Positions 6,527 to 24,118 of a stretch of DNA of 64,000 nt are shown here, in pieces; position 1 is the stretch's first letter; every line of letters begins with the position of its first letter. The position numbers and the translations under genes are program-made. The notes below the pieces were generated by a model. The model saw nothing but the letters and a program-made list of their open reading frames with translations, made no database searches and was not told the DNA's origin. The stretch is from Thermoplasmata archaeon (GTDB lineage: Archaea; Thermoplasmatota; JASEFT01; JBBABA01). The DNA lies in the NCBI GenBank assembly GCA_041657955.1, contig JBBABA010000001.1, positions 40,578 to 104,577 of the forward strand, read 5' to 3'.

Positions 6527-6611
6527 GCAGGGGTAGTCAAGCTTGGCCAAAGGCGCAGGACTTAAGATCCTGTCTCGCAGGAGTACATGGGTTCAAATCC
6601 CTTCCCCTGCA
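6527..6611 (+). tRNA. tRNA-Leu (anticodon TAA)
   Basis: cloverleaf folded by hand: acceptor GCAGGGG/CCCCTGC, anticodon loop CTTAAGA, long variable arm, T-loop GGTTCAAATCC. Confidence 0.85.
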
Positions 6612-6676
6612 CTAATTAATCAAGGTACTACAAGTTTTGAATGATAAAAATAAAATTTTTCAAATAAGGTGCTTGT

Positions 6677-16056: not shown

Positions 16057-16185
16057 CCCGGCTTAGCTCAGACTGGTGGAGCGGGGGACTGTAGTTGGTT
16101 CTCGGAAGCCACAGATCGCATGGTCGAAGGCTTCCGATTCCCCGTTGACATCCTCAGGTCGTTGGTTCAAATCCGACAGCCGGGA
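16057..16185 (+). tRNA. tRNA-Tyr (anticodon GTA) with ~55-nt intron after position 37
   Basis: C1-G72 and A73 (archaeal Tyr identity); anticodon loop CTGTAG|intron; intron has internal helix CGGAAGCC/GGCTTCCG; exon 2 A-TCCTC-AGGTC-GTTGGTTCAAATCCGAC-AGCCGGG-A. Confidence 0.7.
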
Positions 16186-21172: not shown

Positions 21173-21333
21173 GAAGTCACTATCAAATGAGGGTTTTGGC
21201 CTAAGAAATCATTGTCAGACCAGAGCCCAAACATTTGGCGAAGCACGCTTCAAATTACGCATAGAAACAGATAGAACCGCTTTTCCTGGCAATATAAGGG
21301 TGAAACAAAATCTTCTACCTCTCAGTTATACAT

Positions 21334-21500
21334 TTTTATCTCTGTATATATTTTTGTCTCTACCCGTCTGTTTTTATCTCAGTATGTGTTTTTATCTCTA
21401 TCTGTGTGTTTTTATTTCTATATGTGTTTTTTTTTATCTCTATCTGTGTGTTTTTATTTCTATATGTGTTTTTTTTTATCTCTGTCTATGTTTTTATCTA
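21334..21500. repeat. intergenic tandem repeat, ~8 copies of a ~21-bp unit (TTTTTATCTCTATCTGTGTG-like), including an exact 42-bp duplication
   Basis: direct reading: 21394-21435 is identical to 21436-21477; degenerate copies on both sides. Confidence 0.85.
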
Positions 21501-22582: not shown

Positions 22583-22654
22583 GCGGCTGTAGTCTAGTGG
22601 TTAGGACTGGAGCTTCCCAAGCTTCAAACTCGGGTTCAAATCCCGGCAGCCGCA
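22583..22654 (+). tRNA. tRNA-Gly (anticodon CCC)
   Basis: acceptor GCGGCTG/CAGCCGC; anticodon loop TTCCCAA; T-loop GGTTCAAATCC. Confidence 0.85.
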
Positions 22655-22960
22655 CATCAACCAACAGAACCAATTAACAGTGATAGGATTTGAACCGAAG
22701 GTGTTGGAAAATTTTTAACTAATTATATTGAAATTTTTTAACTGAGTGGTATAAAGCACCTCTACATCAAATCCCGACAACCGCACATTGGCTGATAGAA
22801 CTAATTTTAACAGTGGCGGGATTTGAAAATGCGACGAACAAATATCATAACATCGCATGGCTCTGAAAAATTTTAATACACATTGTAGAAATTTTTCACT
22901 CCGAAGGAGAAACCCCGGCAGCCGCACATAAAACTCGGGGCAGCGCATACCCCGCGCATA
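22655..22960. repeat. degenerate copies of the tRNA-Gly 3' half (T-arm + acceptor), direct and inverted; att-site-like remnants
   Basis: TCAAATCCCGGCAGCCGCACAT (tRNA end) recurs as CATCAAATCCCGACAACCGCACATTGGCT (~22768) and CCCCGGCAGCCGCACAT (~22913); inverted GGATTTGAA arms at ~22686 and ~22816. Confidence 0.6.
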
Positions 22961-22976
22961 AAATCAGCCGGATGTA

Positions 22977-23543
22977 TCAGAGCGAATCGCCGCGCAACGA
23001 TACCCTTCTTGTAATTTCGCGAAGCAAACGCGAAACCTCTTTTTTTACATAACACGATTCGAGTATCCCAAATATCTTGTCGGCATTGCCCTTGTCGGTT
23101 TTGATTGTGCCGACATACGAGTTGTCCCCCAATTTCGCCCAAATGAGATATGTATCGTCAACAACAATGATCGGGACAGATAAGCGATAAATTGAGGACA
23201 ACCTATAGTTCGAATGCTCCTTCCAGAGTTTCTCCTCCTCCACCAAATTTTGCTCAAATATTGTTAACCGACCCTCGAATCCTATTGTTTTATCTTCAAA
23301 AAACTCGTCTCGTGTGTATGTATACGAATATAATAACAAACACGAACCTCCTTTTCCAACAACACGGCGGATACTATCCTTAGATATCTCCGCAAACTGT
23401 TCTCTATGTTTTTTGTCGGGAGACCGCGTGTCGCAGAGGAGTGATAACGAATTTTGAAATGCCCCTATCCTTTTTTGTGCTTTTTGTACTTCTGCACCAA
23501 TATATTTGTAAACTTCCTCTTCACAATCGATAAACTCAACCAT
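22977..23543 (-). CDS. hypothetical protein
   Basis: 188-aa ORF between the tRNA-derived repeats and the SRP RNA; no motif recognised. Confidence 0.5.
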   Translation of the reverse strand: MVEFIDCEEEVYKYIGAEVQKAQKRIGAFQNSLSLLCDTRSPDKKHREQFAEISKDSIRRVVGKGGSCLLLYSYTYTRDEFFEDKTIGFEGRLTIFEQNLVEEEKLWKEHSNYRLSSIYRLSVPIIVVDDTYLIWAKLGDNSYVGTIKTDKGNADKIFGILESCYVKKEVSRLLREITRRVSLRGDSL

Positions 23544-23794
23544 GTTTACACCAGTTTATCATATGCGCGGTTGTATATTAAAAGTTTCTATACTGGGTAT
23601 AAAACCTTCAACTTATGGAATATTTGGTCCGAATCATCCTTTGATGGGCGAGAATGCTCCGATAAGGCACAGCACCTAAGTCGAAGACATCCAGAGATAT
23701 TCCAAAAAGATTAAAAAGACCGAGAATATAACGAGTATAGGCGCATCGCAGGGCGTACAAATCCTGCAGAGATCGAAAAACCAAGAACCTGGCG

Positions 23795-24118
23795 AAAGAC
23801 GTTGAGATATACCGGGGTGTTAGGCGTACCCTGTGACCTATAAACCGTCTACAGTAGGGGCGAAGTTTGGGGGCAGTGATTCTGCTTGATATTGGACCAA
23901 ATGCTGCCGTTGAGACCACGTCCCTCGGGGGCTTGGGTGAATTTGGTTGCAGCCGGAGGGTTGCAGCCGTTTACTTCATCAGGGGAACCGGGTCAGGTCC
24001 GGAAGGAAGCAGCCTTATCCTGAACTATTGTCGCTCGAGGGGGTGCGGGGTTGAGAAGGTATTTGGAGCACCCAACTATTGAGCAGAGCACCCACCTCAC
24101 ACGCTCTCAGCGTCCGCT
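23795..24118 (+). ncRNA. signal recognition particle RNA (7S/SRP RNA)
   Basis: conserved helix-8 motif GGTCAGGTCCGGAAGGAAGCAGCC at ~23990-24014; GC-rich structured region; candidate terminal helix 23797-23806 / 24105-24114; exact ends uncertain. Confidence 0.65.

What the first reader, a model, noticed from the sequence alone, without database searches (positions are those of the whole stretch)
22583..22960. Decayed copies of the tRNA-Gly(CCC) 3' half, sharing motifs with the tRNA-Gly(GCC) locus 25 kb away
Downstream of tRNA-Gly(CCC) the last ~22 nt of the tRNA recur at least twice in degenerate form (~22768-22790 and ~22913-22929), each followed by an inverted GGATTTGAA arm. The motifs AAATTTTTTAAC and CATTGGCT(A/G)AT occur here (22731-22742, 22787-22797) and at the other tRNA-Gly locus (47789-47800, 47821-47831). 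This looks like stacked att-site scars from repeated integration and excision of an element targeting tRNA 3' ends, or a small tRNA-derived non-autonomous repeat family. No integrase is present in the window.
Basis: seen in the sequence. Interest (0 to 1): 0.6.

Follow-up and report, generated by a model that had tools for sequence, protein, structure and literature searches.

The report
Stacked mini-insertions behind two tRNA-Gly genes
Both glycine tRNA genes in this archaeal window are followed by stacked ~130-base insertion modules, each ending in a copy of the tRNA's last ~20 bases and holding an inverted copy of its T-arm; related species have none, one or two modules, so these are insertion products, not chance or plain tRNA conservation.

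Summary
Downstream of tRNA-Gly(CCC) (22583-22655) the tRNA's T-loop-to-3'-end segment recurs at 22767-22785 and 22910-22926. Inverted T-arm copies (GGATTTGAA) lie at 22686 and 22819. About 190-250 nt downstream of the two tRNA-Gly genes are homologous, including an exact 20-mer found nowhere else in the window.

Related species decide the reading. One relative (L137) has an empty tRNA-Gly(CCC) site. Another (L136) has a single unit flanked by a 33-nt direct repeat. The window has that unit plus an extra 133-nt segment (22695-22827) bounded by GGATTTGAA on both sides. The nearest relative of this segment is the tRNA-Gly(GCC) locus. The L137 relative does carry the 20-mer unit at its tRNA-Gly(GCC) gene.

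No integrase lies in the 64 kb. ORFan genes sit next to both arrays.

Best reading (about 0.5): stacked, non-autonomous, att-flanked mini-elements or scars made by recombination at T-arm sequences. This is a miniature form of tandem island accretion at tRNA genes. Homology-driven copying without a dedicated recombinase is the main rival.

A biased survey found the same layout (tRNA, inverted T-arm, hairpin, direct 3'-end copy; median period 135 nt) at many tRNA genes in archaea and bacteria. Island-finding pipelines discard candidates this short.

The parts
22583..22655 (+). tRNA-Gly(CCC), complete. Its T-loop-to-3'-end segment (22636-22655, 'dir1') is the first copy of the direct repeat.
   Evidence: ARAGORN; Rfam tRNA 65.1 bits; D1/D2 repeat families.
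22656..22694 (+). Spacer S1 (22656-22685) plus inverted T-arm copy inv1 (GGATTTGAA[CC], 22686-22696). It forms an 11-bp perfect inverted repeat with the tRNA T-arm. This is the resident part, orthologous to L136.
   Evidence: I6 inverted repeat; DNA fold; the block tRNA+S1+inv1 (22583-22694) is 94.6% identical to L136 967-1078.
22695..22827 (+). Window-specific 133-nt inserted segment, bounded by GGATTTGAA on both sides. Contents: CCGAAGGTGTT; AT palindrome pal1 (about 22703-22742, GTTGGAAAATTT / AAATTTTTTAAC); stem-loop SL1 (22746-22764); dir2 (22767-22785, TCAAATCCCGACAACCGCA); spacer S2 (22786-22815, CATTGGCTGAT...); inv2 (22816-22827).
   Evidence: Absent from L136, whose tRNA+S+inv continues straight into the unit-2 homologue. 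Its closest relative is the locus behind tRNA-Gly(GCC): 90.7% over 54 nt and the shared 20-mer. The dir2:inv2 hairpin has z = -4.4.
22828..22929 (+). Older unit 2. Contents: hairpin ATGCGA..TCGCAT (22832-22861); AT palindrome pal2 (22864-22898); stem-loop SL2 CTCCGAAGGAG (22899-22909); dir3 (22910-22926, AAACCCCGGCAGCCGCA) plus CAT.
   Evidence: The block dir2 to dir3 (22767-22929) is 79% identical to the single unit of L136 (1020-1179). Homology ends right after ...CCGCACAT. Compensatory T-A to C-G changes occur in pal2 and SL2 between the window and L136.
22930..23700 (-). Variable segment carrying the ORFan ORF188 (22977-23543, minus strand), which converges on the tRNA. L136 has about 185 unrelated nt here instead.
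   Evidence: Its only match among 5.8 billion proteins is itself. No Pfam or PHROG family. Homology with L136 resumes at about 23701.
47849..47923 (-). tRNA-Gly(GCC), complete.
   Evidence: ARAGORN; Rfam 64.6 bits.
47735..47848 (-). Locus B unit 1. Contents: spacer with a T5 run; inverted arm GCGTCGGGATTTGAACC (plus-strand coordinates 47805-47821; 17-bp perfect inverted repeat with the tRNA end); the 20-mer (47796-47815); AT palindrome GTTAAAAAATTT..AAATTTTTTTAAC; 7-bp stem-loop (47738-47756).
   Evidence: Alignment A1; fold z = -5.2. The same unit start follows tRNA-Gly(GCC) in relative L139.
47662..47736 (-). Locus B module 2. Contents: direct fragment TCAAATCCCGACGCCCC (47723-47734 core); spacer AATTGGCT...; inverted arm GGGATTTGAA (47670-47678); then GGTGCGAC.
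   Evidence: fold.
47225..47644 (+). ORF139 (no family assigned). It lies between module 2 and module 3 of locus B and converges on the tRNA. It may be cargo of an older insertion.
   Evidence: ORFan status was not tested for lack of searches.
47075..47130 (-). Locus B module 3. Contents: CCCCGCA (tRNA 3'-end remnant), spacer TATTAACC..AGCCAAT, inverted arm GCGAAGGGATTTGAAC. It is about 80% identical to the module directly behind the tRNA.
   Evidence: blastn 80% over 50 nt and 92% over 26 nt; sequence.

Best explanation
The region holds two arrays of small non-autonomous insertion modules, one behind each tRNA-Gly gene. A full unit is about 131-141 nt. Its plan is: direct copy of the tRNA from the T-loop to the 3' end; about 30 nt of spacer; an inverted T-arm copy; a short hairpin; an AT-rich palindrome (GAAAAATTT-N15-AAATTTTTC type); a GC stem-loop; then the next direct copy. 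The units were added one after another by recombination at T-arm sequences (shown: presence/absence and junctions; inferred: the enzyme). A first event duplicated the tRNA's T-loop-to-3'-end segment, as in site-specific integration into a tRNA gene, giving an attL-attR pair. A later event in the window's lineage put a 133-nt segment of the tRNA-Gly(GCC)-associated type into the resident inverted T-arm copy, with GGATTTGAA (the T-loop read backwards) at both junctions. No unit encodes a recombinase, so any movement must be driven in trans. The driver would be an integrase encoded elsewhere in the genome or on a visiting element, or the host's own recombination machinery. The AT palindromes carry oligo-T runs on both strands. 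They probably act as archaeal terminators or promoters, which would make the units tolerable next to a tRNA gene (inference). ORF188 and perhaps ORF139 look like cargo left at the same hot spots.
For: Each of the five points below gives the finding and the calls behind it. (1) Junction anatomy. The direct repeats begin in the T-loop and end at the tRNA 3' end plus 3 nt (window) or plus 17 nt (L136, 33-nt repeat AAATCCCGGCAGCCGCACATTAGCCAACAGARCC). This is the pattern of T-loop-type att cores. [quoted passage not shown] (2) Presence/absence in relatives, found through the neighbouring KaiC-like gene. L137 (78% aa identity) has tRNA-Gly(CCC) with no module. L136 (83% aa) has one unit. The window has two. 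(3) Exact insert. L136 967-1078 matches window 22583-22694 at 94.6%, and L136 1020-1179 matches window 22767-22929 at 79%. So 22695-22827 is extra and is flanked by GGATTTGAA. (4) Links between loci. The extra segment's best match is behind tRNA-Gly(GCC). Its direct fragment reads CCCGAC, like tRNA-Gly(GCC), not CCCGGC. L139, from the same sample as L137, has the 20-mer unit behind tRNA-Gly(GCC) although that species' CCC site is empty. (5) ORFan and variable DNA adjoins the arrays, and only the two tRNA-Gly genes are affected.
Against: No integrase, transposase or Cas1 lies in the 64 kb. The only one nearby is a DDE transposase about 5.7 kb past the right end. No full-length parent element was found. 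The 20-mer is absent from genome, metagenome and viral collections except for one chance hit. The generic hairpin pattern has 0 hits in 2.9 million viral contigs. No plasmid or phage shows similarity. A 133-bp excised circle would be very small. Classical integration does not predict the inverted T-arm copy. Fourteen population-level contigs are 99.7-100% identical, so there is no sign of ongoing mobility. In 129 ORFs next to similar modules in other genomes, the integrase family was not among the families matched by two or more members, so at most one ORF can carry it. Copying between the two loci by homologous recombination would give the same end product.
Confidence: 0.5

Rival explanations
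1. Homology-driven copying without a dedicated recombinase. Gene conversion, unequal crossing-over or replication template switching between the two tRNA-Gly loci, and within each array, would use the identical T-arm (AACTCGGGTTCAAATCCCG) and the repeated modules as short homologies. The T-arm hairpin would promote fold-back and strand switching, giving direct-inverted-direct arrangements.
For: The two tRNAs share a 19-nt identical T-arm block, and the modules share further stretches. The 133-nt insert is bounded by 9-10-nt identities that could serve as microhomology. In haloarchaeal examples, the tRNA end, spacer and inverted copy form one long near-perfect palindrome, as fold-back synthesis would give. 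Perfect tandem units in L024 and long repeat extensions in 7 of 49 loci fit unequal exchange. No recombinase gene is nearby.
Against: In the window and L136 the inverted copy covers only the T-loop and T-stem, not the acceptor end or spacer, so it is not a faithful fold-back copy. The unit interior (AT palindrome, stem-loops) copies no local sequence. The A insert and locus B are only about 76-90% identical, so the present locus B is not a recent donor. Repeat starts cluster in the T-loop/T-stem and repeat ends at the tRNA 3' end in 42 of 49 surveyed loci, which looks site-specific.
Confidence: 0.25
2. A functional, selected feature of the tRNA-Gly loci rather than mobile DNA. The AT palindromes would be bidirectional oligo-T terminators and/or TATA-like promoters, and the hairpins would be processed small RNAs or protein-binding sites. 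The array would then be a set of small transcription units whose first member is the tRNA.
For: Two hairpins (pal2, SL2) keep pairing through double T-A to C-G changes between the window and L136. tRNA-Gly(CCC) has no T-run before pal1, so the unit supplies the first oligo-T stretch (inference). Haloarchaeal tRNA-Gly(TCC) loci of five species, from Halorubrum (two), Haloplanus, Halorientalis and Haloarcula, all carry such modules. Hairpin folds are well below shuffles, z = -4.4 and -5.2.
Against: Close relatives lack the units (L137) or have fewer (L136). No Rfam family matches even at E up to 5. The stem-loop SL1 is perfect in locus B but degenerate in locus A. Function would not explain why every unit ends in a copy of the local tRNA's 3' end.
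Confidence: 0.12
3. Decayed tRNA pseudogenes: remnants of tandem and inverted duplications of whole tRNA-Gly genes, of which only the most conserved part survives.
For: The fragments are clearly tRNA-derived. There is faint similarity between the sequence after inv1 and the reverse complement of the anticodon arm (by eye).
Against: Only 3' fragments starting in the T-loop are present, never 5' halves. The fragment length is fixed at about 17-20 nt. Units have a constant non-tRNA interior shared between loci and species. Spacing of 131-141 nt leaves no room for a decayed tRNA plus flanks once the shared interior is counted. Rfam finds no tRNA-like remnant at E up to 5.
Confidence: 0.04

Closest known systems
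Tandem genomic islands / cis-mobilizable elements (CIMEs) at tRNA and tmRNA genes, e.g. Dehalococcoides ssrA islands (PMC3146451) and Islander-type tDNA islands (PMC4383910)
   Same: An intact tRNA gene is followed by displaced 3' fragments in direct orientation. The repeat starts in the T-loop and runs to the 3' end. Several units are stacked behind one gene. Some members lack recombination genes. Relatives differ in presence or absence.
   Different: Units here are 131-141 bp rather than kilobases and have no integrase. Each carries an inverted T-arm copy, which is not part of the classical picture. The youngest insertion used the inverted copy, not the tRNA, as its crossover site. Islander rejects candidates under 2 kb or without an integrase, so such units are outside its scope.
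MITEs (miniature inverted-repeat transposable elements)
   Same: Small, non-coding and non-autonomous. Inverted repeats are present (inverted T-arm against the direct T-arm copy).
   Different: There are no defined terminal inverted repeats abutting a short target duplication. Copies are not dispersed: they lie only behind the two tRNA-Gly genes. No transposase family is linked.
Integron cassette arrays with attC hairpin sites
   Same: Arrays of short units, each ending in an imperfect palindrome of about 60-80 nt that could fold as single-stranded DNA to rebuild a double-stranded copy of the primary site. One slot at locus B holds an ORF.
   Different: There are no R''/R' core sites (RYYYAAC/GTTRRRY) in the modules and no IntI. 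Most 'cassettes' are 65-80 nt without an ORF. The resemblance is architectural only.
Casposon target duplication at tRNA 3' ends
   Same: Duplication of a tRNA 3'-end segment flanking an insert, in Thermoplasmata-related archaea (from my own knowledge of Aciduliprofundum casposons).
   Different: There are no terminal inverted repeats next to the duplication and no cas1 or polB. The repeats are 17-33 nt rather than 14-15 nt (checked by eye).
Integrase-mediated recombination between tRNA genes in Thermococcus (Int-pTN3, PMC5495485)
   Same: An archaeal integrase can recombine different tRNA genes through shared identical stretches, producing insertions and inversions. This could explain transfer between the two tRNA-Gly loci and the inverted copies.
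   Different: Those events are large chromosomal inversions driven by a known plasmid integrase. No such enzyme has been identified here.

Membership tests
tDNA-integrated island / att-site scar (tyrosine-integrase type) | Intact tRNA gene plus a displaced 3' fragment of the same tRNA in direct orientation downstream | tested here: met
   D1: 22638-22660, 22769-22791, 22910-22932; L136 has a 33-nt repeat.
tDNA-integrated island / att-site scar (tyrosine-integrase type) | Repeat begins at the T-loop (or anticodon loop) and extends to the tRNA 3' end | tested here: met
   The copies start at TCAAAT/AAATCC of the T-loop and end at ...CCGCA(+CAT).
tDNA-integrated island / att-site scar (tyrosine-integrase type) | Integrase gene inside or next to the element | tested here: not met
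   Precomputed Pfam annotation of called genes or a direct Pfam scan covers the window's called genes and long ORFs, and none is an integrase.
tDNA-integrated island / att-site scar (tyrosine-integrase type) | Occupied and empty site in related genomes | tested here: met
   L137 is empty, L136 has one unit, the window has two.
tDNA-integrated island / att-site scar (tyrosine-integrase type) | Excision and integration by a recombinase (circular intermediate) | not testable with these tools
   This needs read-level data or experiments.
Cis-mobilizable element (CIME) | attL and attR flank DNA that lacks recombination and transfer genes; the element can sit in tandem with others (accretion) | tested here: met
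   Structure only: the units are flanked by repeats, have no genes and are stacked. Mobilisation was not tested.
MITE | Terminal inverted repeats at the element ends, flanked by a short target-site duplication | tested here: not met
   Sequence next to the direct repeats shows no terminal inverted repeats. The inverted T-arm copy lies 30-45 nt inside.
MITE | Many dispersed copies in the genome | tested here: not met
   Within the 64 kb, copies lie only at the two tRNA-Gly loci. The rest of the genome was not available.
Integron cassette array / attC | attC sites with R''/R' core sites RYYYAAC...GTTRRRY, and an IntI integrase | tested here: not met
   The modules' arms are TCAAATCC/GGATTTGA with no GTT/AAC cores. 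There is no integrase.
Casposon-derived miniature element | 14-15-bp target duplication, terminal inverted repeats, Cas1 casposase | tested here: not met
   Repeats are 17-33 nt, there are no terminal inverted repeats, and no Cas1 appears in the window annotation.
Split tRNA genes (separate 3' halves) | No full-length gene for that tRNA; the half gene has its own leader complementary to a 5'-half trailer | tested here: not met
   Both tRNA-Gly genes are complete and score 65 bits. The fragments cover only the last 17-20 nt.
Known RNA family (Rfam) | Covariance-model match | tested here: not met
   Only tRNA matches, even at E up to 5.

The most novel reading that the evidence does not exclude
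The window may show one lineage of a widespread, overlooked class of module of about 60-290 bp (median 135) at tRNA gene 3' ends. The plan is: tRNA, spacer, inverted T-arm copy, hairpin, then a direct copy of the tRNA's own last 18-26 nt, often in tandem. These could be minimal 'att-only' mobile units, or cassette-like units whose hairpin site (direct plus inverted T-arm) rebuilds the tRNA target. They accumulate at tRNA genes across archaea and bacteria without nearby integrases. I collected loci only for having a T-arm plus an inverted copy 25-55 nt later. Among them, 49 of 92 also had a direct copy of that tRNA's 3' end 42-275 nt downstream, against 3 upstream. Haloarchaeal units at tRNA-Gly and tRNA-Glu share an internal motif. 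Island finders reject candidates under 2 kb.
Probability: 0.3. Interest if true: 0.75.

Novelty: new variant of a known kind. Interest (0 to 1): 0.55.

Why it matters
tRNA genes are the main landing sites for integrating elements in bacteria and archaea. Current surveys count only kilobase-sized islands that carry an integrase. If ~130-bp modules flanked by tRNA 3'-end repeats are themselves products of that recombination, or substrates for it, three things follow. First, they record past integration activity in genomes that look free of islands. Second, they can mislead tRNA and island annotation, and they coincide with assembly breaks: several contigs end inside these repeats. Third, they point to recombination at T-arm sequences in either orientation, which bears on how integrases or host recombination reshuffle DNA around tRNA genes. 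In this uncultured Thermoplasmata lineage they also mark two hot spots where ORFan genes were acquired.

Tried and rejected
Searches that led nowhere:
- Exact 20-mer scans of genome contigs, viral contigs and metagenome contigs gave nothing. The single metagenome hit, L015, is a chance match in a high-GC bacterial contig.
- A family-specific dir-spacer pattern in viral contigs gave one chance hit inside a phage gene.
- blastn against plasmids and phages found nothing.
- Rfam at permissive E-values found nothing beyond tRNA.
- ORF188, ORF139 and ORF209 have no Pfam or PHROG family and are unrelated to each other.
- TRF does not detect the 131-141-nt units because they are too diverged.

Tests that did not support an idea:
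- I tested for integrase enrichment next to similar modules in other genomes. Pfam on 129 neighbouring ORFs returned housekeeping families only.
- I tested the idea that the inverted T-arm is part of a viral attP. There were 0 hits in viral contigs.

Readings considered and rejected:
- Split-tRNA halves: both tRNAs are complete.
- Casposon or MITE termini: no terminal inverted repeats.
- Convergent tRNA pairs: only 1 of 120 survey loci, and Rfam on 18 loci found no second tRNA under the inverted arm.
- IS200/IS605-type hairpin ends: the loops are 30-45 nt and no TnpA or TnpB is present.

Other points:
- The orthologue contig L140 was too short to reach the tRNA.
- The within-survey control (other tRNAs in the same loci, 9 of 44 with a direct copy) is contaminated. 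At least 4 of those 9 belong to the same kind of array: they are cognate tRNAs just upstream of second-unit modules.
Full report
**What the window is.** The window is archaeal. It has an archaeal SRP RNA at 23800-24112 and about 44% G+C. It is the same DNA as contig k141_203906 of ENA assembly ERZ27247322. NCBI names one of its proteins as coming from a 'Thermoplasmata archaeon' MAG. ARAGORN finds tRNA-Leu(TAA) at 6527-6612, tRNA-Gly(CCC) at 22583-22655 (+) and tRNA-Gly(GCC) at 47849-47923 (-). Rfam adds an intron-containing tRNA at 16057-16185.

**Check of the observation.** The repeats are there.
- The repeat finder reports three in-register copies of the tRNA-Gly(CCC) 3' end: 22638-22660, 22769-22791 (78%) and 22910-22932 (91%), spaced 131 and 141 nt.
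- It also reports inverted T-arm copies, including an 11-bp perfect pair GGTTCAAATCC/GGATTTGAACC.
- TCAAATCCCGRC occurs 6 times against 0.79 expected. GGATTTGAA occurs 10 times against 1.08 expected.
- The 20-mer GGATTTGAACCGAAGGTGTT occurs only behind the two tRNA-Gly genes.
- Aligned in tRNA orientation, the two loci agree at 76% mean column identity, with clear homology for about 180 nt past the tRNA.
- Only one detail fails: the third direct copy has no inverted arm after it.
- I found one more module at 47075-47130, beyond ORF 47225-47644.
- The other tRNA genes in the window have nothing similar.

**Anatomy.** Read in tRNA orientation, both loci have the same plan:
1. the tRNA, whose T-loop-to-3'-end is the first direct copy;
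2. about 30 nt of spacer;
3. an inverted T-arm copy;
4. CCGAAGGTGTT;
5. an AT palindrome (GTTAAAAAATTT-N15-AAATTTTTTAAC);
6. a stem-loop;
7. a second direct copy (TCAAATCCCGAC...);
8. a second spacer (CATTGGCT...);
9. a second inverted copy;
10. (A/G)(A/G)TGCGAC.

Locus A then continues with a hairpin, a second AT palindrome, the stem-loop CTCCGAAGGAG and the third direct copy. Each direct copy and the inverted copy after it form a long imperfect palindrome. As single-stranded DNA these fold well below shuffled controls (z = -4.4 and -5.2).

**Same-population contigs.** Fourteen contigs from other samples that encode the identical neighbouring proteins are 99.7-100% identical across both regions. 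So there is no length polymorphism at that level. Several of these contigs end inside the repeats.

**Related species decide the interpretation.** I found orthologous tRNA-Gly(CCC) loci through the KaiC-like gene just upstream.
- L137 (78% protein identity) has the tRNA, here with a 26-nt intron, and no module. Another tRNA follows about 75 nt later.
- L136 (83%) has a tRNA 99% identical to the window's, followed by a single unit. That unit is flanked by a 33-nt direct repeat, AAATCCCGGCAGCCGCACATTAGCCAACAGA(G/A)CC.
- blastn shows that L136's tRNA, spacer and inverted arm equal window 22583-22694 at 94.6%. L136's unit equals window 22767-22929 at 79%.
- It follows that window 22695-22827 (133 nt) is extra. 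It is bounded on both sides by GGATTTGAA, which is the T-loop sequence read backwards.
- The best match of this extra segment is the locus behind tRNA-Gly(GCC): 90.7% over 54 nt. Its direct fragment reads CCCGAC, like tRNA-Gly(GCC).
- I found L139 through ProC. It comes from the same sample as L137. It has tRNA-Gly(GCC) followed by a spacer and CGGGATTTGAACCGAAGGTGTTAAAAAATTT, where the contig ends. So this unit type is old at the GCC locus and arrived later at the CCC locus of the window's lineage.
- Beyond the third direct copy, the window has about 770 nt with ORF188 where L136 has about 185 unrelated nt. ORF188 matches nothing but itself among 5.8 billion proteins.

**No recombinase nearby.** The window's called genes and long ORFs were covered by precomputed Pfam annotation or by direct scans. 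There is no integrase, transposase or Cas1. A DDE transposase lies about 5.7 kb beyond the right end.

**Mechanism.** What is shown: units were inserted, stacked and shared between the two tRNA-Gly loci; the repeats have the shape of T-loop-type att cores; and the junctions of the youngest insert lie in a T-arm copy. What is inferred: the process itself.
- The best fit is recombination at T-arm sequences that leaves attL-attR-like pairs around a very small interior. In other words, these are non-autonomous mini-elements or scars, stacked as in tandem island accretion.
- There are precedents. Dehalococcoides ssrA islands are stacked, have 20-bp repeats, insert in the T-loop, and include members without integration genes (PMC3146451). 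An archaeal integrase recombines different tRNA genes through shared stretches (PMC5495485).
- The main rival is homology-driven copying: gene conversion, template switching or unequal exchange. It needs no enzyme that I failed to find, and it fits the palindromic haloarchaeal examples. It explains less well the constant non-tRNA interior and the site-specific repeat boundaries.
- A purely functional reading has some support. Two hairpins are kept by compensatory T-A to C-G changes between the window and L136, and oligo-T runs sit on both strands of the AT palindromes. But it does not explain the presence/absence pattern.
- Decay of whole tRNA duplicates is unlikely.

**A wider pattern, seen in passing.**
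- I scanned one genome per species for a T-arm followed 25-55 nt later by its inverted copy. Most are archaeal (Halobacteria, Thermoplasmata, DPANN), with some CPR and other bacteria.
- Only one locus is a convergent tRNA pair. Rfam on 18 loci found no hidden tRNA under the inverted arm.
- Of 92 loci with one tRNA on an arm, 49 also have a direct copy of that tRNA's own last 18 nt (at most 2 mismatches) 42-275 nt downstream, against 3 upstream.
- The period has a median of 135 nt. The repeats start 18-26 nt from the tRNA end, in the T-arm. In 42 of 49 loci they end 0-14 nt past the tRNA end. In the other 7 the repeats run longer (38-122 nt past the tRNA end), and 5 of the 49 loci carry two or more direct copies within 400 nt.
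- Neighbouring ORFs are housekeeping genes. The integrase family was not among the families matched by two or more of the 129 ORFs, so at most one can carry it.
- Haloarchaeal units behind tRNA-Gly(TCC) and tRNA-Glu share an interior motif: AGTCGCAG..CAG...GAGCAGGAAYGTCT.
- A Thermoplasmata MAG (L132) has the same layout behind its tRNA-Gly(CCC), without sequence similarity to the window's units.
- The generic hairpin pattern is absent from 2.9 million viral contigs.
- This survey is biased by its search pattern, and its internal control is contaminated. It is therefore a lead, not a measurement.
- It does matter that the standard island finder rejects candidates under 2 kb or without an integrase (PMC4383910). 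Units like these would not have been catalogued. My literature searches found only kilobase-scale tRNA-fragment cases.

**Verdict.** The finding is real and is not explained by T-arm conservation. Comparative evidence shows insertion and stacking, but the enzyme is unknown and there is no sign of current mobility. I class it as a new variant of a known kind: tandem, integrase-less elements at tRNA genes, in miniature and with an unexplained inverted T-arm copy. Interest is moderate, 0.55. It would be higher if the wider pattern holds up in an unbiased census.

Noticed in passing
window 16057-16185 (+): An intron-containing tRNA found by Rfam (46.2 bits) but missed by ARAGORN. By eye it has a GTA anticodon and an intron of about 55 nt.
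   Followed up: no
L137 2920-3018: In a related species the tRNA-Gly(CCC) orthologue carries a 26-nt intron after the anticodon loop. ARAGORN miscalls it tRNA-Leu(CAA). The window's copy has no intron.
   Followed up: partly
L016-L135 (genome-contig loci), e.g. L024, L040, L074, L084, L094, L134: Many tRNA genes of different identities in archaea and bacteria share one layout: spacer, inverted T-arm, hairpin, then a direct copy of the tRNA's own 3' end. The median period is 135 nt and units are sometimes in perfect tandem. 49 of 92 loci have the direct copy downstream, against 3 upstream.
   Followed up: partly
L018, L019, L020, L084, L097 (Halobacteria): Units behind tRNA-Gly(TCC) and tRNA-Glu(CTC) in different haloarchaeal genera share an interior motif (AGTCGCAG..CAG..GAGCAGGAAYGTCT). 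This suggests an element family that sits at several tRNA types.
   Followed up: no
L132 6742-7107: A Thermoplasmata MAG has tRNA-Gly(CCC) followed by an inverted T-arm, a partial T-arm copy, and a near-exact direct copy of the tRNA 3' end (at most 1 mismatch) about 275 nt downstream. It shows no sequence similarity to the window's units.
   Followed up: partly
window 22779, 22799, 22899, 22583 and 47879; L139 end: Several independent metagenome contigs (L004, L008, L005, L007, L012, L139) end inside the repeat arrays. The likely causes are assembly breaks at repeats or local population heterogeneity.
   Followed up: no
window 21327-21499: An intergenic tandem repeat (period about 20/42 nt, up to 7 copies) lies between the pantoate-kinase-like gene and the KaiC-like gene.
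   Followed up: no
window 45427-45661: About 10 copies of a 24-nt repeat lie inside the MFS transporter gene (44813-46192). They encode a repetitive KIESDKA-like insert.
   Followed up: no
window 48161-48857 (-): A HEPN / nucleotidyltransferase toxin-antitoxin-like gene pair lies directly upstream of tRNA-Gly(GCC). In relative L139 the tRNA follows the nucleotidyltransferase gene within about 120 nt, which leaves no room for a HEPN gene.
   Followed up: partly
window about 42400-44750, compared with L010/L012 1-2342: Gene content differs at strain level left of the MFS gene. The window and L009 have a P-type ATPase. Contigs L010 and L012 have Band_7 and zinc-ribbon genes instead.
   Followed up: no
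L142 1-53 (about 5.7 kb beyond the window's right end): A DDE_Tnp_1 (IS4-like) transposase gene. It is the only mobile-element enzyme seen near the window.
   Followed up: no
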